From IMG/VR virus record IMGVR_UViG_2531839180_000006: a stretch of DNA of 47,402 nt. One strand, written 5' to 3'. Origin of the DNA: a virus (lineage: Duplodnaviria > Heunggongvirae > Uroviricota > Caudoviricetes). Numbering within the stretch: the first letter of the stretch is position 1; each line of letters starts with the position of its first letter. The notes beneath the pieces were generated by a model. The model worked only from the letters and a program-made list of their open reading frames with translations, had not been told where the DNA came from and ran no database searches. Shown piece after piece: positions 27,651-42,603 of the stretch. The position numbers and the translations under genes are program-made.

Positions 27651-27685
27651 GGAGTTTACTCACATCTGACAAAATCAATATAAAC

Positions 27686-27705
27686 AGCCCCTCCGGAGAG
27701 GGGCT
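27686..27705. terminator. Perfect hairpin AGCCCCTC-CGGA-GAGGGGCT downstream of the 111-aa ORF and of the tRNA cluster; possible bidirectional terminator
   Basis: 8-bp perfect GC-rich stem with tetraloop read directly. Confidence 0.4.
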
Positions 27706-27939
27706 GGAGAGTGGCGCTATGTGCCATTGCATGGTGCCGGGTGCCTCCCGGTGAATTCAGTACCAGCACCTGAATCCGCGATTATCCCATATACCTACTC
27801 GCTGATTGCCCCTCCGCACAGGGGGATTCACCATGCCAGTTTCTTTTAACAAACTCCCCGCAAACCAGACAACAGTCAACCGCCTGAATTGTGAGACATT
27901 TAAAAAAAGCCCGCAAAAGCGAGCCAAGGAAAATAAGTG

Positions 27940-28016
27940 TGGCGCGTTGTACTGGATTCGAACCAGTGACCGATTGCTTAGAAGGCAATTGCTCTGTCCG
28001 GCTGAGCTAACAACGC
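27940..28016 (-). tRNA. argO: tRNA-Arg (anticodon UCU), argO-like
   Basis: Minus strand GCGTTGTTAGCTCAGCCGGACAGAGCAATTGCCTTCTAAGCAATCGGTCACTGGTTCGAATCCAGTACAACGCGCCA folds as a canonical cloverleaf (7-bp acceptor, TTCGAAT T-loop, CCA). Confidence 0.85.
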
Positions 28017-28029
28017 AGGATACAGATAA

Positions 28030-28106
28030 TGGACCGCCTTCGGGGACCCGAACTCCGCGCAACCAGCTTCGAAAGCTGGCGCTCTTTCCTGATGAGCTAA
28101 TGGCGG
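28030..28106 (-). tRNA. argN: tRNA-like, probable tRNA-Arg (anticodon UCG by eye), argN-like; non-canonical pairs, possibly degenerate
   Basis: CCGCCATTAGCTCATCAGGAAAGAGCGCCAGCTTTCGAAGCTGGTTGCGCGGAGTTCGGGTCCCCGAAGGCGGTCCA: cloverleaf possible but A-A mismatch in acceptor stem, A-C mismatch in T-stem, G at position 58. Confidence 0.55.
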
Positions 28107-28113
28107 TATGTGA

Positions 28114-28189
28114 TGGTGGCCCTTGCTGGATTTGAACCAGCGACCTGGCGATTATGAGTCGCTCGCTCTCACCACTGAGCTAAAGGGCC
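28114..28189 (-). tRNA. ileZ: tRNA with anticodon CAU (Ile2/lysidine type, ileZ-like; formally Met/Ile)
   Basis: GGCCCTTTAGCTCAGTGGTGAGAGCGAGCGACTCATAATCGCCAGGTCGCTGGTTCAAATCCAGCAAGGGCCACCA; closely resembles E. coli tRNA-Ile2; perfect acceptor stem, TTCAAAT T-loop. Confidence 0.85.
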
Positions 28190-31504: not shown

Positions 31505-32194
31505 TTAATTGACTTTTGCAATATCTCGTCGTGAAAAGGTCGCTTTTTGTTGCGATCTCATTTTCACGGTGCAAATCAAGGATTCTGTATCGAGTTTCTT
31601 AAAAATGTCGCACATCTCACGCCAGTAGTTCGCATAATTATGGCTCCAGTTGTCAGGCTTAACTCCACACAGTCTGGCAAGTTCCTGTCGCTGGTAGACG
31701 TCACGCCCAGTAATCCTCCCCCTGACATCCTGCGCCGCCAGCCAGATTAATTTCTTCAGACGCTCAAGCGTTTTCCCTGTAATTTTTCTGGTGCCAAAAT
31801 GCACCTGAAACTTATCCCACGCCCATTTCGCAATGACCACCTGATAATCCCAACTCGGATTTTCACTGTATACCCACAGCACCCACGCCTTCTGATGCTC
31901 TTCAAGAGACAGAACGGCGCGTCGCCATGATGATGTCGAAAACTCAACCGGACTGACCAGGGCAATTGATGAACCTTTCGCCAGCGATTGCTTTCCCGGG
32001 ATTGGTGGATTATCCCGCGTTATCATTTTTCCAGTCACTTCATCGCGGTACCGGATTTTTTTACGCCTGTAACGCCCTGTATCGAACATGGCATTCTCTT
32101 GCCAGGCTTCAAGCTGACCTTTTGTTGCCCCACTCAAATCAGCGGTGGCGATAATGAGCTGCTCACGCACAAACTGTAAATACTGGTTATTCAT
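31505..32194 (-). CDS. Putative late-gene antiterminator Q (QuuQ/YdfT-like family)
   Basis: 229-aa ORF at the Q position (after rusA, before terminator and late genes); start overlaps rusA stop; family from memory, not lambda-Q-like. Confidence 0.55.
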   Translation of the reverse strand: MNNQYLQFVREQLIIATADLSGATKGQLEAWQENAMFDTGRYRRKKIRYRDEVTGKMITRDNPPIPGKQSLAKGSSIALVSPVEFSTSSWRRAVLSLEEHQKAWVLWVYSENPSWDYQVVIAKWAWDKFQVHFGTRKITGKTLERLKKLIWLAAQDVRGRITGRDVYQRQELARLCGVKPDNWSHNYANYWREMCDIFKKLDTESLICTVKMRSQQKATFSRRDIAKVN

Positions 32195-32556
32195 GCGCAC
32201 TCCAGTTCTGTGATTTTTATCCCCAGCCGCCCACCAGGAACGAGATGACCGCGCACAATATTGATTTCATCAAACTGCTCGTCGTCTATAAGTAGTCCGG
32301 CATGCGTCAGCGCATCCAGTGGTGCCTTCAGGATATTGTCCAGGTCGCGGCGGCGCTTATCCGGTGGCTCTGCAATAATCTTTATCGCCAGCCTTCCGGA
32401 CAGGTTTAATTTCAGCCGCTGCTGGCGAACAATTAGCGCCACATCACGGCGATAACGCTTTCCGGCTTCCGAGATGAAATACGTATTGCCATGACGTCGC
32501 CAGTAGGTATTCACCGTCGGCGGGTAAGGCAAAACAAATTCTATGCGTTCAGTCAT
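32191..32556 (-). CDS. rusA: Holliday junction resolvase RusA
   Basis: 121 aa; 'PPDKRRRDLDNILKAPLDALTHAGLLIDDEQ' matches RusA catalytic region. Confidence 0.85.
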   Translation of the reverse strand: MTERIEFVLPYPPTVNTYWRRHGNTYFISEAGKRYRRDVALIVRQQRLKLNLSGRLAIKIIAEPPDKRRRDLDNILKAPLDALTHAGLLIDDEQFDEINIVRGHLVPGGRLGIKITELECA

Positions 32557-33615
32557 TTATGCTTTCCACTTCAGGACACCCGAATTTCTCGCGTGCATTA
32601 AAAAACGAATCAGCAACAACAGCTGGCTGCCGTGTTTTTCTTCAAAATCTTTTACCCCGGCGTGTAGTTCGCTATGGCATATACGGCACAGCGGAATAAC
32701 AAACAAATCATCAGCCTTTGTTCCCATCCCTCCCAGTCCATGACCAATGATGTGATGCGGATCATCTGCCTGATTGCCACACGTCATGCATTTCTGCGTT
32801 TTTACCCAACGCGTGTATACAGGCATATCTTCCCGTTGTGGTTTCTGGCGCTGGAGATACTGAGCCGGTGACTCCGGATCAACGGCAATGCTGACCACCG
32901 TCTTTTCCTGTGGTGGATTCTGTTGCTGGTGGGCGTGAGGCAACGGCGCAATATTTTTTGTGCGCTGCTTCAGTATGCTGATGGCGGTCTGCTCTCCCGG
33001 TACGATGTCGCTCTCGCGGTATACTGAGCGGATTTTTTCACTCGGAAGCTTCAGGATTCGACGCGCCATATTTTCGGTCATGGCATCCACTACATCATTT
33101 ACAGAAGCCCAGCAGCACAATTCAGCCAGCGATAATTCCCGCTCCTGCGTGCCATTCACTGCATGGCGTATGACGTCAATCATCCATGCTGACAGGTTTT
33201 GATGAGCAAGTTGCCCGAGTGATTCGGAGGTCTGGTCACGCAGCTGGTTGTCGCAGTGCCAGCACAACACCATCGCGCCGGTACCGTAACGATGTATGAC
33301 GGTTTCGCTGTGATGGTAGTCACCATGAGGCCACTGGCAGGATTTAACATGGCGTAATAGCCAGTCAGACAGTGCGCCAGCGCCGCCAGCAGCACGAATC
33401 ACCCGCTCATCGCTGAAAAATGGCAGTAGTGATTTATCCTCCGCCAATGGCTGGCGAACGGCAGGAACGACTCCGGACGGCAGACCGCGCATGCTTTTCG
33501 GTTCCGGCTCCACCAGTACACGACCGCTGCGGAATACCTGCATGGATTCACGACCAGGCTTAAGGACCACCAGCCCAAGTTCCGGTACCGGAACAGATCG
33601 AAGTAATACCCGCAC
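32557..33615 (-). CDS. DUF968/YdfU-like protein with C-terminal Cys/His cluster (NinG-like region)
   Basis: 352 aa; C-terminal 'CMTCGNQADDPHHIIGHGLGG...LCRICHSELH'; same position as ydfU in Qin. Confidence 0.6.
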   Translation of the reverse strand: MRVLLRSVPVPELGLVVLKPGRESMQVFRSGRVLVEPEPKSMRGLPSGVVPAVRQPLAEDKSLLPFFSDERVIRAAGGAGALSDWLLRHVKSCQWPHGDYHHSETVIHRYGTGAMVLCWHCDNQLRDQTSESLGQLAHQNLSAWMIDVIRHAVNGTQERELSLAELCCWASVNDVVDAMTENMARRILKLPSEKIRSVYRESDIVPGEQTAISILKQRTKNIAPLPHAHQQQNPPQEKTVVSIAVDPESPAQYLQRQKPQREDMPVYTRWVKTQKCMTCGNQADDPHHIIGHGLGGMGTKADDLFVIPLCRICHSELHAGVKDFEEKHGSQLLLLIRFLMHARNSGVLKWKA

Positions 33616-33616
33616 G

Positions 33617-33895
33617 TTACCTCCAGATCCGTTGCTGGAATGTGCGGGACGGACGCGGTGGGCGTTCGGAATAAGGGAGTCTGACGGAAATTATCCAGTG
33701 TCGGAAGTCAGAACTGAGGTCTTTCTGAAACTCGTAACCACGTCTGCGGTAGTTCTGAATCAGCCACTCGGCCTGTTCTTCGGTGCAGGGGTCGTGCTGA
33801 TACCAGTCAGATTTGAATGTGTGAGGATACCGCTCGTGCGTACAGGCAAGAACGGTCGAATTATTATGATTGTAATATTTTGCGTTGCGTGCCAT
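33617..33895 (-). CDS. Hypothetical nin-region protein (92 aa)
   Basis: ORF with GGAGAAAA SD; stop adjacent to start of downstream gene. Confidence 0.5.
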   Translation of the reverse strand: MARNAKYYNHNNSTVLACTHERYPHTFKSDWYQHDPCTEEQAEWLIQNYRRRGYEFQKDLSSDFRHWIISVRLPYSERPPRPSRTFQQRIWR

Positions 33896-33961
33896 CGGTT
33901 TTCTCCGGTGGCACGGTGTTACTCAGCGGGAGTTCAGCCCCGCGCAAGATTGTAGATGAGT

Positions 33962-34225
33962 TTATTCTTCTGAAAAAGCAGAAAAGCCAGCTTTTATTCC
34001 GATCTCTTTCAATGCCTGTAATGAAGTGGCAAACTCATCGTCGCGCAAGATAAATCCGTCCGTCACCCGAGCATCCACAAAATTAATTAATGCAACCCCA
34101 CTCTTTCTTTGCTTCTTTCGCAAACACAGAACGCGGCAATGACTAACAATATTTCCATTTTCAACGCACACAGCATAGAGGCCATCTTCACAAAAAATTT
34201 TACGCAGTTCTTCGATGTTCATCAT
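33962..34225 (-). CDS. Hypothetical nin-region protein (87 aa)
   Basis: ORF with strong SD GGAAGGA 5 nt before ATG. Confidence 0.5.
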   Translation of the reverse strand: MMNIEELRKIFCEDGLYAVCVENGNIVSHCRVLCLRKKQRKSGVALINFVDARVTDGFILRDDEFATSLQALKEIGIKAGFSAFSEE

Positions 34226-34443
34226 CAGAATCCTTCCGGATAATTAGCTCTCCCCTTCAGGGGGCCATCCCTCTTATCCCTGCGCGCTACTTAAGTGTTT
34301 TGGATTCTATATCCGGTGTCTTAAAAAAAGTTAAAACGCATTGAAAATAAAACAAAAAACCGTCGAAGCGGGTTAAGCGCGGGTGCGTTGAGGATGCCGA
34401 CACATCAGAGGTGGCGGGAGATTACTCTCCCGCCAGGTCACTC

Positions 34444-34599
34444 TTACTCTCTAGATTCGTAGTCTACGAAAACAGCAACCTCCGTCTGGCCGGTTCGGAT
34501 TCGTACCTCGCAGAGGTCTTTCCTCGTTACCAGTGCCGTCACTATGACGGTTAAACAGATGACGATAAGGGCGATTAACATCGCCTTTTGCTGCTTCAT
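34444..34599 (-). CDS. hok: Hok-family type I toxin (HokD/RelF-like membrane peptide)
   Basis: 'MKQQKAMLIALIVICLTVIVTALVTRKDLCEVRIRTGQTEVAVF' matches Hok/Gef family; AAGGAG SD; in-frame upstream extension (to 34656) may be mok-like. Confidence 0.85.
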   Translation of the reverse strand: MKQQKAMLIALIVICLTVIVTALVTRKDLCEVRIRTGQTEVAVFVDYESRE

Positions 34600-35025
34600 A
34601 GCCTGCTTCTCCTTGCCTTTCGGCACGTAAGAGGCTAACCTACATTTGTGAGACATAGATTGGGCCTCAGATTAATGTTAAGCGTCTTGCAGGACGCGTA
34701 ATGTTAACTGGGGCTTTTCTCTATCTGCCTTTTGGTGTTCATGCCTGAGACAGATAGCCTCAAGCACCCGCAGCAATTCTACTTAACTCTCCTTTTCCCG
34801 CAAACCGTTTTTATCCTCAACGTAAATTTTACCAATATTGCCTAACACATCTCCCTTGCCCTGACGATGCTTACCTCTTTACACAGACCCAAATTTATGT
34901 ATTATCTTTTACAAACAAGCAGTTAAGAGCTATCGGTGGGTGAGTTCGCCCTGCGGTAGCTTTTCCTTTATGCATTGCATCTATTTATGTTCTAGTATAT
35001 TCCTATATGTTCAAAAGGACTTTTC

Positions 35026-35958
35026 ATGCACAGCGTTAATTTCTATTCATTCCGCGTATTGACCCATAAAGGCAGTCGAGCCAGCAAAAAACTTAATGAA
35101 TTGGGTTTAAGTAATAAAAAAACGGCATATGAACTTTTTGTTGATTATTTTACTCTATATAAAAACACCCCCATCGAGTTTGGCGTATCCAAAACTAAAA
35201 TATCTCTGGAACAACACGCTAAACTTCACTTTGATAACTCAAAGAAAATTATATATGGTTATATAAAAGTTGGGAAATATGGAGAAAGCAGTGAAATAAA
35301 AGATGTAAAACTCAAAAAAATCCACTACAGGACAACTGCTTATGATGTAACACTCAAAGAACGTTATATTTTAATATACCTACCAGACGCCCTTGAAGAA
35401 GGAATTATTGCATTCCACTCTTGCGATAATATTTCTGCCCGAGGTGTCCTTTCTGATTCTATCACTGAATATCTAAAAAACAAATTTCAACTCGAAGCAA
35501 GAATCAATCCATTACATCATAAGAAAATCCCTCAATATATTCTCAATTCCGAATTAAAACAAATTAAGGCTCAAGGATATAAAGCACCAAAAGACATTGC
35601 TGATTCCTTTGGTCAAAACAAAACAAACATCAAGACAGACTTAATAATAAAAGCAAACGATGGCATGTTCGGAAGTTTCAGGGATTTAAGAAACAAGAAT
35701 ATAGGAAACATCATTGAGATTATTGAAGATAAATGTGATGCAATAAAAGTAAGCTTACAACTCGGCAGTCGGACTGTCGTTTTCAATTATGAGACCATAC
35801 TAAAAAAAGGAATTTCTGCAGAGTTAGATGATAATGATTTAAAAATCGACCCATTAACAGGCATACCTGATCTAACAGCACTTCATGACACGATAAAAAA
35901 CCTTTCTAATGATATATTGTTAGAACTGCATAGCGGAAACAAAGGGGTGATTATATGA
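35026..35958 (+). CDS. Hypothetical soluble protein (310 aa), first gene of an AT-rich two-gene cassette; candidate sensor component
   Basis: Long ORF with SD AAAAGGA; very low GC compared with flanking phage genes; no recognisable catalytic motif by eye. Confidence 0.6.
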   Translation: MHSVNFYSFRVLTHKGSRASKKLNELGLSNKKTAYELFVDYFTLYKNTPIEFGVSKTKISLEQHAKLHFDNSKKIIYGYIKVGKYGESSEIKDVKLKKIHYRTTAYDVTLKERYILIYLPDALEEGIIAFHSCDNISARGVLSDSITEYLKNKFQLEARINPLHHKKIPQYILNSELKQIKAQGYKAPKDIADSFGQNKTNIKTDLIIKANDGMFGSFRDLRNKNIGNIIEIIEDKCDAIKVSLQLGSRTVVFNYETILKKGISAELDDNDLKIDPLTGIPDLTALHDTIKNLSNDILLELHSGNKGVII

Positions 35959-36509
35959 ATAAAATAAATGTGCTGGGTGTAATAATAAAACACTACAAAA
36001 CAATGTCAGATCAGCGTGGAACAATGTTGATGAGCGACATTATCGTACATTTTATTGTTCCGTTATCTCTTTCTTTCGTTCTGTGCCGGACATACGGAAT
36101 AATGAAACCGGCAATTGCTTCCGTCTTCGTTAACTTCGGGGCTATTACAACAGCACTATTAATGAGTGCAGTAATAATGATTTATGAACAAAAACAAAAA
36201 ACCATCACTAAGATATCAGACATAATTGAAGGAAACAAATCCCGAGACAAATTGATATCATTAAACACTAACAAAACCATATATGAGCAGTTATGCCACA
36301 ACGTCGCTTATGCAATATTAACTTCAATAGTATTGGTTATATTTTCAGTGATAATATATTTCCTGCCTGACAATGCAGTGGATTTAATGAAATGGTATTT
36401 TCGCGCACCTGCATATATTGTTAGCTTTTTAGCCTATACATCCTTTTTTATCACTGTTATAACGTTCTTAATGGTAATAAAAAGATTTAGCACAATTTTA
36501 GATAATTGA
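35955..36509 (+). CDS. Hypothetical integral membrane protein (184 aa, ~4 predicted TM helices), second gene of the cassette; candidate membrane effector
   Basis: Four hydrophobic ~20-aa segments; start overlaps upstream stop (ATGA); SD AAAGGGGTGA. Confidence 0.6.
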   Translation: MNKINVLGVIIKHYKTMSDQRGTMLMSDIIVHFIVPLSLSFVLCRTYGIMKPAIASVFVNFGAITTALLMSAVIMIYEQKQKTITKISDIIEGNKSRDKLISLNTNKTIYEQLCHNVAYAILTSIVLVIFSVIIYFLPDNAVDLMKWYFRAPAYIVSFLAYTSFFITVITFLMVIKRFSTILDN

Positions 36510-42086: not shown

Positions 42087-42603
42087 AAACACTCCTTTTT
42101 ACTGTGGAAAGCTAAATCATATCACGGTCTATGAAGTAAAAAGTGAATTTCGTGATGCGGTGAATGCGGCTCAGCGCACGCAGAACAGTTAAAAACACAA
42201 GTGTTATGGGTGAATCATCCGGCGTTAATTGTTAACTGGTTAACGTCACCTGGAGGCACCAGGCACCGCATCACAAAGTTCACTTAGGTGATGAAAGGTA
42301 GAGAAAATGTTGAATGTAGCTATTGAAAACCAGAACGGGTGGAATTATAGTGCACCTGCACCTCATAAAACGGGTGCCGGGCGTGGAAACCCGATGTTCA
42401 CTAACGCGCATAATCGCGCTCAGGCGGTTTTTTTATGCGTAATGCACAGCCACATTCAGATTATGGTGGGACGTGCAGGGCAGCCGCAAGGCTGGCCGGG
42501 TTCGTTAGTGACCGGTATTTCCACCCCTGTACGTCTCACCACCCTTATGGTCGTGGAAAACCTTGGTGGTGAGTTAATCAAATTCACTAACGAGGCTGCT
42601 ATC

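What the first reader, a model, noticed from the sequence alone, without database searches (positions are those of the whole stretch)
34400..34700. Stand-alone hok-family type I toxin gene in the nin region
A 51-aa Hok/Gef-family toxin with a strong SD (34444..34599) sits without relBE neighbours. An in-frame upstream ATG (34656) gives a mok-like extension, and a GC-rich terminal hairpin (34411..34432) lies just past the stop. Functional hok loci normally need an antisense sok RNA from the opposite strand around the leader; I could not identify it by eye. The gene is adjacent to the AT-rich two-gene cassette.
Basis: partly seen in the sequence, partly recalled or inferred. Interest (0 to 1): 0.45.

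Follow-up and report, generated by a model that had tools for sequence, protein, structure and literature searches.

The report
Complete hok/mok/sok toxin–antitoxin module
The small toxin gene is real, but it is not alone: its antisense antidote RNA and all the usual RNA switches are present, so this is an ordinary, already described prophage copy of the hok/sok killer system.

Summary
A 51-aa Hok/Gef toxin ORF (34599..34444, minus strand; Pfam E 4e-23), an in-frame 70-aa mok extension from ATG 34656 and a stable hairpin just after the stop are all present, in the nin-equivalent region of a lambdoid prophage. The 'stand-alone' reading does not hold. The locus is about 94% identical to the tested hokW-sokW module of phages 933W/Sp5. 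By alignment its antisense Sok RNA maps to 34648..34718 (plus strand). Its promoter, TTGCCT-17-TAACCT, is identical to the sokW promoter whose -10 was inactivated by mutation in the literature. The other family elements are also present: 5' tac, ucb, a metastable partner, mok SD, the 3' fbi (34393..34381) and the 3' stem-loop of the processed mRNA. Fifty distinct phage alleles support the pairings, some with compensatory changes. The true unit spans about 34803..34352, wider than the reported interval. K-12 hokD/relF is the same module cut at the hok SD by relBE. Three points were not in the finding: a degraded terminator after fbi, a hypervariable Sok 5' end, and Tyr47 sitting in a CUACGAA loop identical to the tRNA-Arg(ACG) anticodon loop, the TadA editing substrate. 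Expression and toxicity were not tested. Already known; low interest.

The parts
34776..34803 (-). Putative hok/mok promoter: -35 TTGCGG (34803..34798), 16-nt spacer, -10 TAGAAT (34781..34776), then 6 nt to +1 G at 34769
   Evidence: Read. The geometry matches R1 (TATGAT, 6 nt, G). The -10 block is conserved and sequence upstream of it diverges among 56 alleles. The strict promoter scan did not call it. Inferred, not mapped.
34379..34769 (-). Full-length mok-hok mRNA, about 391 nt to just past fbi; it may extend to the T-tract at 34354
   Evidence: The Rfam leader model starts exactly at 34769. The block conserved across alleles is about 34781..34371. R1 full-length mRNA is quoted from memory as 398 nt; that figure places its end just past fbi in L085. 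Fold z -5.6.
34758..34769 (-). tac (translational activator) element, GGGUGCUUGAGG, nt 1-12
   Evidence: Invariant in 50 alleles (pi 0.000). It has three alternative partners in the folds.
34741..34751 (-). Partner of tac in the predicted metastable 5' hairpin (nt 19-29, GUCUCAGGCAU)
   Evidence: Folds of the 175-nt and truncated RNAs pair nt 3-13 with nt 19-29. The element is as described for R1 in PMC9841398.
34710..34717 (-). ucb / anti-SD (AAAGCCCC, nt 53-60). It pairs with the mok SD in the full-length form and with tac in the tac-stem
   Evidence: (duplex -10.7 kcal/mol). pi 0.004.
34665..34668 (-). mok Shine-Dalgarno GAGG (nt 102-105)
   Evidence: It lies 8 nt before the mok AUG. It is paired with ucb in the full-length fold. 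The same GAGG motif is present in R1.
34444..34656 (-). mok ORF, 70 aa, in frame with hok (19-aa N-terminal extension)
   Evidence: Same arrangement as the annotated mokW and mokC.
34444..34599 (-). hok ORF, 51 aa, SD AAGGAG at 34614..34609
   Evidence: Pfam HOK_GEF E 4.3e-23. 49/51 identical to HokW, 44% to R1 Hok, 47/51 to K-12 HokD (own count from the alignment).
34452..34466 (-). tRNA-Arg(ACG)-like arm: stem UAGA/UCUA with heptaloop CUACGAA (34462..34456). The editable A of the Tyr47 codon UAC is at 34460
   Evidence: The local +/-25 nt fold gives exactly this hairpin. The loop is identical to the K-12 argQ anticodon loop. UACG is invariant in 50 alleles. Editing itself was not tested here.
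34412..34435 (-). Stable hairpin 8 nt after the stop; equivalent of the 3' stem-loop of the processed (truncated) hok mRNA
   Evidence: dG -20.5, z -6.9. Three base pairs carry compensatory changes across 50 alleles (helix 18). Same position as the R1 hairpin. Its role in R1 is described in PMC9841398.
34381..34393 (-). fbi (fold-back inhibition) element, CCUCAACGCACCC, pairing with tac
   Evidence: Duplex -21.0 kcal/mol. It is present in the MFE of the full-length RNA. All 12 pairs are standard in 50/50 alleles (helix 1). U4-A here corresponds to C3-G in R1.
34354..34372 (-). Degraded intrinsic terminator, CCCGCUUCGACGGUUUUUU
   Evidence: dG -2.6, z +0.7, against -12.3, z -3.5 for the consensus CCCGCUUCGGCGGGUUUUU. 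The same variant is in L002 and L021. It is intact in K-12 hokD and absent from 933W.
34613..34641 (+). Sok promoter: -35 TTGCCT (34613..34618), 17-nt spacer, -10 TAACCT (34636..34641)
   Evidence: Identical to 933W. R1 has TTGCGC-17-TATCCT. The -10 was mutated in Takada 2021, with release of toxicity. pi 0.03. The strict consensus scan did not call it.
34648..34718 (+). Sok antisense RNA, about 71 nt: 9-nt single-stranded 5' tail, long hairpin, U-tract. It is complementary to hok mRNA nt 52-122 (ucb, mok SD, mok AUG)
   Evidence: Mapped from the sokW misc_RNA of AF125520 through alignment A1. Fold dG -30.7, z -5.75. It overlaps the mok start by 9 nt, as in K-12 sokC/mokC and 933W. The transcript was not observed here.

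Best explanation
This is a complete, probably functional hok/mok/sok type I toxin-antitoxin module of the hokW/hokD lineage, carried as a roughly 410-bp cassette in the nin-equivalent region of a lambdoid prophage.

Proposed mechanism, inferred from the R1 hok/sok paradigm and from hokW-sokW:
1. A weak constitutive promoter makes a roughly 390-nt mok-hok mRNA starting at G34769.
2. While it is being transcribed, the 5' tac element is held in a metastable hairpin.
3. In the finished transcript tac pairs with fbi near the 3' end. The ucb then sequesters the mok SD, so the RNA is neither translated nor bound by Sok.
4. Slow 3' trimming removes fbi and stops at the stable hairpin at 34435..34412.
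5. tac then pairs with ucb, which exposes the mok SD in a small hairpin. That hairpin is both the ribosome entry site and the Sok target.
6. Sok (34648..34718, plus strand) is unstable and made from its own promoter. It base-pairs through its 5' tail, and RNase III destroys the duplex.
7. If Sok supply stops, mok is translated. Coupled hok translation follows, and the 51-aa peptide damages the inner membrane.
8. A further likely gate is TadA A-to-I editing of the Tyr47 codon (UAC to UGC), which would supply the second periplasmic cysteine.

Biological role, by analogy with hokW-sokW: helping lysis and phage release after prophage induction. Prophage retention and exclusion of other phages are alternatives.

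What is shown here is sequence, homology, predicted structures and covariation. Transcription, processing, toxicity and editing are inferred.
For: **Toxin.** Pfam HOK_GEF E 4e-23. 49/51 identical to HokW.

**Whole-locus homology.** About 94% nucleotide identity to mokW/hokW/sokW of 933W and VT2-Sakai, where sokW is annotated. 98.6% identity to loci in complete E. coli genomes.

**Experimental support for the near-identical hokW-sokW** (PMC8621323):
- HokW is toxic.
- sokW neutralises it from its own promoter.
- Mutating the -10 (the AGGTTA motif that is identical here) releases toxicity.
- The antitoxin effect depends on RNase III and Hfq.
- sokW disappears and HokW appears after mitomycin C.
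- Deletion halves phage release.

**Sok candidate.** It folds as a 5' tail plus terminator-like hairpin, z -5.75.

**RNA switch elements.**
- tac-fbi duplex is -21 kcal/mol and is in the MFE.
- In the 391-nt RNA the tac-fbi form is 11 kcal/mol better than the tac-stem form. After removal of fbi the tac-stem form is within 2.3 kcal/mol of the optimum.
- Across 50 distinct alleles, 95.9% of cells are paired against 34-41% for slid controls, and 10 pairs carry changes on both sides against 4.3 in shuffles.

**Layout.** The element order matches R1 (mok AUG nt 114 vs 116, hok AUG nt 171 vs 174, fbi at nt 377 vs 384). Hairpin and fbi positions fit R1's truncated (361 nt) and full-length (398 nt) mRNA lengths, which are quoted from memory.

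**Family description.** PMC9841398.

**Editing site.** UACG is invariant, and the heptaloop is identical to the tRNA-Arg(ACG) loop. Family precedent is in PMC5630033 and PMC12214031 and in the preprint 10.1101/2025.08.07.668861.
Against: - No expression data exist for this locus.
- The strict sigma-70 scan called neither the hok nor the Sok promoter. The Sok -10 TAACCT matches only 3 of 6 consensus positions.
- The intrinsic terminator after fbi is broken in this allele, so the transcript's 3' end may differ.
- The tac-fbi helix shows no change on both sides within the 50 close alleles, because it is almost invariant. Its support therefore rests on conservation, predicted energy and one comparison with R1.
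- ViennaRNA's optimum for the truncated RNA is the metastable-type hairpin, not the tac-stem.
- Chromosomal hok loci of E. coli were reported unable to mediate post-segregational killing (as cited in the preprint).
- In the global fold the editable A lies in an internal loop of a long-range helix, not in the tRNA-like hairpin.
Confidence: 0.87

Rival explanations
1. Inactive remnant: the sequence is hok-like but the module no longer kills or is no longer regulated, as reported for the hok loci of the K-12 chromosome.
For: The terminator hairpin after fbi is lost in this allele (dG -2.6 vs -12.3). The K-12 loci are inactivated: hokD is cut by relBE and hokC has IS186 next to it. Chromosomal loci were reported not to mediate post-segregational killing. 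Both promoters are weak matches to consensus.
Against: The ORFs are intact, with no IS element or rearrangement. tac, ucb, mok SD, the Sok promoter, hok SD, the hairpin and fbi are all present and nearly invariant across 50 alleles. 933W lacks this terminator altogether, yet hokW-sokW is active. In the preprint's toxicity assay 42 of 45 tested Hok homologues were toxic.
Confidence: 0.09
2. One reading: a stand-alone toxin gene with no cognate antisense RNA, controlled only by its own mRNA structure or by a Sok encoded elsewhere in the genome.
For: No canonical promoter is called on the plus strand at 34600..34700. Many E. coli genomes carry several hok loci (median 2, up to 10), so antitoxin supplied in trans is conceivable.
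Against: The plus strand carries the same promoter and the same terminator-like hairpin as the annotated and tested sokW. The promoter region is among the most conserved parts of the module (pi 0.03). The extreme Sok 5' end differs between alleles (13 hexamers in 50), which argues against a shared Sok acting in trans.
Confidence: 0.02
3. The module is intact, but its main role here is anti-phage exclusion or prophage addiction, not help with lysis on induction.
For: hok/sok of R1 is a plasmid addiction system and has been reported to act in phage defence (cited in the preprint). hok is enriched in prophages (23% vs 5% expected). It sits next to an AT-rich accessory cassette of unknown function.
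Against: hok loci are not enriched near known defence systems (12% vs 9.4%). The cassette matches no PADLOC model and accompanies hok in only 1 of 80 phage loci. The only direct experiment on a prophage hok of this lineage found an effect on lysis and phage release.
Confidence: 0.3

Closest known systems
hokW-mokW-sokW of Stx2 phages 933W / Sp5 (VT2-Sakai)
   Same: About 94% nucleotide identity over roughly 430 bp. Hok is 49/51 identical. mok is in frame and 70 aa long. The Sok promoter, hok SD, tac, ucb and fbi are identical. The CUACGAA loop is the same.
   Different: The Sok 5' end and mok codons 2-4 differ (GUGAGA vs GUUCAG; Mok starts MSHK vs MLNT). Hok ends RE instead of EK. It lies in the nin region, not beside attR. 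Sequence after fbi is unrelated: the window has a degraded terminator and 933W has none.
hokD (relF) of the K-12 Qin prophage
   Same: Near-identical from the hok SD through the CDS, the post-stop hairpin, fbi and the terminator into rem. The downstream context is the same: rem, DUF968/ydfU, Q. PGAP names close copies 'HokD'.
   Different: In K-12 the whole leader (tac, ucb, mok start, Sok promoter and Sok gene) is replaced by the end of relE. The window has the intact leader. HokD has UUACGAA instead of CUACGAA at the Tyr codon and an intact terminator.
hok/sok (parB) of plasmid R1
   Same: The elements are the same, in the same order and with near-identical spacing. The Sok promoter geometry is TTGxxx-17-TAxCCT. 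There is a tac-fbi lock, a hairpin that in R1 ends the truncated mRNA, and a TACG Tyr codon near the C-terminus. Rfam RF01794 hits both.
   Different: Hok is only 44% identical. R1 mok is in the +1 frame relative to hok, while here it is in frame. R1 is a plasmid addiction module; this one is in a prophage.
hokC (gef)/mokC/sokC of the E. coli chromosome
   Same: The 5' end is the same (GGGTGCTTGAGG). mok is in frame (69 aa). SokC overlaps the mok start by 9 nt, as Sok does here. The Rfam hit is 118 bits.
   Different: The leader is shorter (hok AUG at nt 151 vs 171). The K-12 copy has IS186 immediately downstream of the ORF.

Membership tests
[quoted passage not shown] | Small (about 50 aa) Hok/Gef membrane peptide with an N-terminal hydrophobic helix and conserved Cys | tested here: met
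   PF01848 is matched over 42/42 positions, E 4.3e-23. The hydrophobic stretch AMLIALIVICLTVIVTALV and Cys15 and Cys30 are read from the translation.
[quoted passage not shown] | Overlapping upstream mok reading frame with its own SD, through which hok is translated | tested here: met
   ATG 34656 with GAGG 8 nt upstream gives a 70-aa ORF covering hok. Translational coupling itself was not tested.
[quoted passage not shown] | Cis-encoded antisense Sok RNA with its own promoter, complementary to the mok translation initiation region | tested here: met
   The sequence features are met by homology to the annotated sokW. The promoter is identical. The fold is a 5' tail plus hairpin plus U-tract, z -5.75. 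Sok covers hok nt 52-122, including the mok SD and AUG. Transcription was not observed.
[quoted passage not shown] | Long-range 5'-3' pairing (tac-fbi) that locks the full-length mRNA | tested here: met
   The duplex is -21.0 kcal/mol and is in the MFE. All 12 pairs are standard in 50/50 alleles; 3 of the 12 pairs carry a G-C to G-U change in one to three alleles. One change is compensatory relative to R1.
[quoted passage not shown] | Alternative pairings of tac (metastable hairpin; tac-ucb stem) and of the mok SD (with ucb, or with dcb) | tested here: met
   All are found in folds of nested 5' fragments and in constrained folds. These are thermodynamic predictions only.
[quoted passage not shown] | Stable stem-loop that becomes the 3' end of the processed, translatable mRNA | tested here: met
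   Hairpin 34435..34412, dG -20.5, z -6.9. Three pairs carry compensatory changes. Its position matches R1.
[quoted passage not shown] | 3' exonucleolytic processing, RNase III cleavage of the Sok-hok duplex, toxicity, and killing when Sok supply stops | not testable with these tools
   Toxicity, RNase III dependence and loss of sokW before HokW production were shown for the 94%-identical hokW-sokW (PMC8621323). The two hok mRNA forms were shown for R1 (PMC9841398).
TadA-edited hok transcripts (Tyr-to-Cys recoding) | Tyr codon UAC followed by G (UACG) at the second conserved Cys position | tested here: met
   Codon 47 is UAC followed by GAA. UACG is invariant in 50 alleles. The family pattern is described in the papers read.
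TadA-edited hok transcripts (Tyr-to-Cys recoding) | The edited A is presented in a stem-loop that resembles the tRNA-Arg(ACG) anticodon arm | tested here: inconclusive
   The local fold gives a 4-bp stem with heptaloop CUACGAA, identical to the argQ loop. The 51-nt fold is not significantly more stable than shuffles (z -1.4). The global fold places the A in an internal loop of a long-range helix.
TadA-edited hok transcripts (Tyr-to-Cys recoding) | A-to-I change observed in RNA but not in DNA | not testable with these tools
   No RNA data are available. [quoted passage not shown]

The most novel reading that the evidence does not exclude
The module may act as an induction-coupled lysis accessory wired into the phage's own transcription programme. 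In this window (PR operon), and in 933W (PL read-through across attP after excision), hok lies co-directionally inside an early phage operon; N-type antitermination is assumed by analogy with lambda and was not checked in this prophage. Induction-driven read-through would then run head-on into the convergent Sok promoter and deplete Sok. That would explain the RecA-dependent loss of sokW. Two further layers may add to this. The hypervariable six nucleotides at the Sok 5' end (pi 0.45; 13 variants in 50 alleles) could give each co-resident prophage a private antitoxin. A perfect tRNA-Arg(ACG) anticodon-loop mimic at Tyr47 could make toxin potency depend on TadA editing. None of the three is shown here; each is compatible with the data.
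Probability: 0.2. Interest if true: 0.45.

Novelty: already known. Interest (0 to 1): 0.12.

Why it matters
There is little new here. hok/sok modules in lambdoid prophages have been annotated since the 933W genome, and one 94%-identical copy has been characterised by experiment. hok is known to be enriched in prophages.

The practical value is corrective:
- The locus should be annotated as a full mok-hok-sok module spanning about 34803..34352, not as an orphan toxin.
- The antisense gene is on the plus strand, even though the Rfam 'sok' hit falls on the minus strand.

The window also gives a clean intact counterpart to the truncated K-12 hokD/relF. The side observations are cheap to test: the private Sok 5' ends, the exact tRNA-Arg loop mimic at the editable Tyr codon, and the orientation inside early operons. 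They could refine how prophage hok loci are triggered.

Tried and rejected
- **Consensus promoter/terminator scan.** It found neither the hok nor the Sok promoter, and it called only a chance-level terminator inside the hok CDS. I relied instead on homology to tested promoters.
- **Rfam 'sok' hit as evidence for the antisense gene.** Rejected, because the model matches the hok-sense leader. In K-12 it hits the hokC strand while sokC is annotated on the opposite strand.
- **The post-stop hairpin as the transcription terminator.** Rejected, because the conserved block and the fbi lie downstream of it.
- **First R1-type plasmid copy fetched (L084).** Unusable, because IS150 replaces its leader. 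I used L085 instead.
- **Covariation in tac-fbi among close alleles.** Uninformative, because the helix is nearly invariant.
- **A link between the prophage tRNAs and TadA competition.** Rejected, because the tRNAs are Arg-UCU, Arg-UCG and Met/Ile-CAU, with no ACG.
- **The AT-rich cassette as a partner of hok or a known defence system.** There is no Pfam, NCBIfam or PADLOC hit and no meaningful PDB match (only E about 0.6-0.9 to ATP synthase subunit b). It accompanies hok in only 1 of 80 phage loci and 37 of 5426 genomes.
- **YUNR U-turn motif in the Sok target loop.** I looked for it by eye only. It was not consistent across alleles, so I make no claim.

Full report
**Observation.** On the minus strand there is a 51-aa ORF at 34599..34444. 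It matches Pfam HOK_GEF over the whole model (E 4.3e-23) and the PHROG family 'MokW-like host killing' (E 1.3e-32). AAGGAG lies 9 nt before its ATG. An in-frame ATG at 34656 extends the frame to 70 aa. A 10-bp hairpin at 34435..34412 follows the stop by 8 nt (dG -20.5, z -6.9).

Rfam's RF01794 ('sok') hits 34594..34769 at 120 bits, but on the hok strand. The same model hits the hok-sense strand in K-12 hokC, where sokC is annotated on the opposite strand inside the hit, and also in 933W and in an R1-type plasmid. The model therefore marks the hok leader, not the antisense gene.

The antisense gene was located by homology. The region is about 94% identical to mokW/hokW/sokW of phage 933W and VT2-Sakai, whose records annotate sokW. 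Alignment A1 places the equivalent RNA at window 34648..34718 on the plus strand. Upstream lies TTGCCT, then 17 nt, then TAACCT (34613..34641). This is identical to 933W and equivalent to TTGCGC-17-TATCCT of R1. The candidate RNA folds as a 9-nt free 5' tail, a long hairpin and a U-tract (dG -30.7, z -5.75). It overlaps the mok start by 9 nt, exactly as in 933W and in K-12 sokC/mokC.

Takada et al. 2021 (PMC8621323) showed the following:
- HokW is toxic.
- sokW expressed from its own promoter neutralises it.
- Changing the -10 releases toxicity. Their primers YO-421/422 alter the AGGTTA motif that is identical here.
- The antitoxin effect needs RNase III and Hfq.

**The rest of the machinery.** The family's regulatory logic is summarised in PMC9841398. 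A 5' tac element pairs with a 3' fbi element in the full-length mRNA. The ucb then masks the mok SD. After 3' trimming tac pairs with ucb instead, and during transcription a metastable hairpin holds tac. All of these elements are present here:
- The 5' end GGGUGCUUGAGG (34769..34758) pairs with CCUCAACGCACCC at 34393..34381 (-21.0 kcal/mol). This pairing is in the MFE of the full-length RNA (z -5.6).
- In that fold the mok SD (GAGG, 34668..34665) pairs with the ucb (34717..34710).
- Shorter 5' fragments fold into the tac-stem, or into a hairpin pairing nt 3-13 with nt 19-29.
- Enforcing the tac-stem costs 11 kcal/mol in the 391-nt RNA but only 2.3 kcal/mol once fbi is removed. This is the expected direction for the switch.
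- Element positions track R1 closely: mok AUG at nt 114 vs 116, hok AUG at nt 171 vs 174, fbi at nt 377 vs 384.
- R1's truncated mRNA (361 nt, a figure quoted from memory) ends right after the equivalent hairpin.

**Comparative support.** A scan of IMG/VR gave 80 loci encoding close relatives. Fifty distinct alleles were aligned (A2).
- The conserved block runs from the hok -10 (about 34781) to just past fbi (about 34371). Both flanks diverge sharply, so the unit behaves as a mobile cassette of about 410 bp.
- On the predicted full-length structure 95.9% of cells are standard pairs, against 34-41% when partners are slid. Ten pairs carry changes on both sides, against 4.3 in shuffles.
- Compensatory changes fall in the post-stop hairpin (three pairs) and in the 5' hairpin (A-U to G-C in 15 alleles).
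- The tac-fbi helix is 100% paired, but it is too conserved to covary within this set. Against R1 it shows U-A replaced by C-G.

**Context and relatives.** About half of the 80 phage loci have the same downstream 92-aa and DUF968 genes, and a quarter have the 933W context near attR. The nin position is therefore the common one. K-12 hokD/relF aligns with the window from the hok SD onward, through the hairpin, fbi, an intact terminator and rem. Everything upstream in K-12 is relE. The window thus holds the intact form of what K-12 retains only as a truncated gene. Matches to the 501-nt query, at any coverage and down to roughly 60-80% identity, occur in 4941 of 5426 complete E. coli genomes (3860 of them covering at least 80% of the query), with a median of 2 per genome. 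hok is known to be enriched in prophages and not near defence systems (preprint 10.1101/2025.08.07.668861).

**Departures and extras.**
1. The intrinsic terminator that follows fbi in most alleles (CCCGCUUCGGCGGGUUUUU, -12.3 kcal/mol) has two substitutions here and no longer folds (-2.6). Because 933W lacks it altogether and its locus is still active, this is unlikely to be disabling.
2. The six nucleotides at the extreme 5' end of Sok are hypervariable. pi is 0.45 with 13 variants in 50 alleles, against 0.04-0.06 at hok third codon positions. The window's version (GUGAGA) differs from sokW (GUUCAG).
3. Tyr47 is encoded by UAC followed by G. UACG is invariant in all alleles. In a local fold the site sits in the heptaloop CUACGAA closed by UAGA/UCUA. 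That loop is identical to the K-12 tRNA-Arg(ACG) anticodon loop. TadA editing of this Tyr to Cys is documented in hokB and at lower levels in hokC, hokD and hokE, and in HokB it affects disulfide formation and toxicity. Editing at this locus is an inference.

**Function.** The best-supported role, by analogy with hokW-sokW, is help with lysis and phage release after induction. Addiction and exclusion remain possible. One observation may bear on the trigger. hok is co-oriented with the early rightward operon here. In 933W it is co-oriented with PL transcription once the genome is excised: int and xis are on the minus strand at attL, and the hokW block is on the minus strand at attR. Read-through would meet the Sok promoter head-on in both cases. 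This is speculation. It fits the reported RecA-dependent loss of sokW and the suggestion of transcription inhibition.

**Verdict.** The finding is real, but it is an ordinary and already described prophage hok/mok/sok module. The 'stand-alone' aspect that gave it interest does not hold. Nothing about expression, processing, toxicity or editing was or could be tested here.

Noticed in passing
window 34648..34653 (+), equal to hok mRNA nt 117-122: The extreme 5' end of Sok (also mok codons 2-3) is hypervariable among 50 phage-borne alleles. pi is 0.45 with 13 different hexamers, against 0.04-0.06 at hok third codon positions and 0.16 in an unpaired loop. This could reflect private antitoxin specificity or simply relaxed constraint.
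   Followed up: partly
window 34452..34466 (-); editable A at 34460: The Tyr47 codon lies in the heptaloop CUACGAA closed by UAGA/UCUA. The loop is identical to the K-12 tRNA-Arg(ACG) anticodon loop. 29 of 50 alleles have CUACGAA and 19 have UUACGAA, as in K-12 hokD. This predicts TadA Tyr-to-Cys editing, which was not tested.
   Followed up: partly
window 34354..34372 (-): The intrinsic terminator after fbi is degraded by two substitutions (dG -2.6, against -12.3 for the consensus allele). The hok transcript may therefore read into the rem-like gene at 34225..33962.
   Followed up: partly
window 34594..34769 (-); L003 502..654: Rfam RF01794, named 'sok antitoxin', models the hok-sense leader. 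In K-12 it hits the hokC strand while sokC is annotated on the other strand. Taking the hit's strand at face value would mis-annotate sok.
   Followed up: yes
window 35026..36509 (+), with a promoter-like site at 34878..34905 (+): A two-gene cassette of about 33% GC (310 aa and 184 aa; PHROG 15676 and 15250, function unknown) is transcribed divergently from hok. It has no Pfam, NCBIfam or PADLOC hit and no meaningful PDB match (only E about 0.6-0.9 to ATP synthase subunit b). It occurs with hok in 37 of 5426 E. coli genomes, such as ETEC E24377A, and in 1 of 80 phage hok loci.
   Followed up: partly
L089 (K-12 Qin, NC_000913.3 1643000..1648500) compared with window 33950..34800: K-12 hokD/relF is the same module truncated at the hok SD by relBE. 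Downstream, rem, ydfU (DUF968) and Q match the window's gene order.
   Followed up: yes
window 34769..31505 (-); L001 and L090 (933W): hok is co-oriented with the early operon in both known positions: PR here, and PL across attP after excision in 933W. Read-through on induction would therefore oppose the Sok promoter.
   Followed up: partly
window 27676..28189 (-) and 42358..42546 (+): Other RNA genes are present: STnc100 (27676..27865), three tRNAs (Arg-UCU, Arg-UCG and Met/Ile-CAU) at 27940..28189, and isrK (42358..42434) next to a C4 antisense RNA (42459..42546).
   Followed up: no
PP818812.1 13200..13649 (hit H1): The best match among phage records (95.1%) is a record named 'Actinobacillus phage vB_Apl-pPE4'. 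That is an unexpected host for an E. coli-type hok module.
   Followed up: no
L084 (NZ_CP141206.1 70437..71992): An R1-type hok on an IncF plasmid has an IS150 transposase gene ending about 110 bp upstream of the hok ATG, and it lacks the tac sequence. This is inactivation by IS insertion, like that known for K-12 chromosomal hok loci.
   Followed up: no
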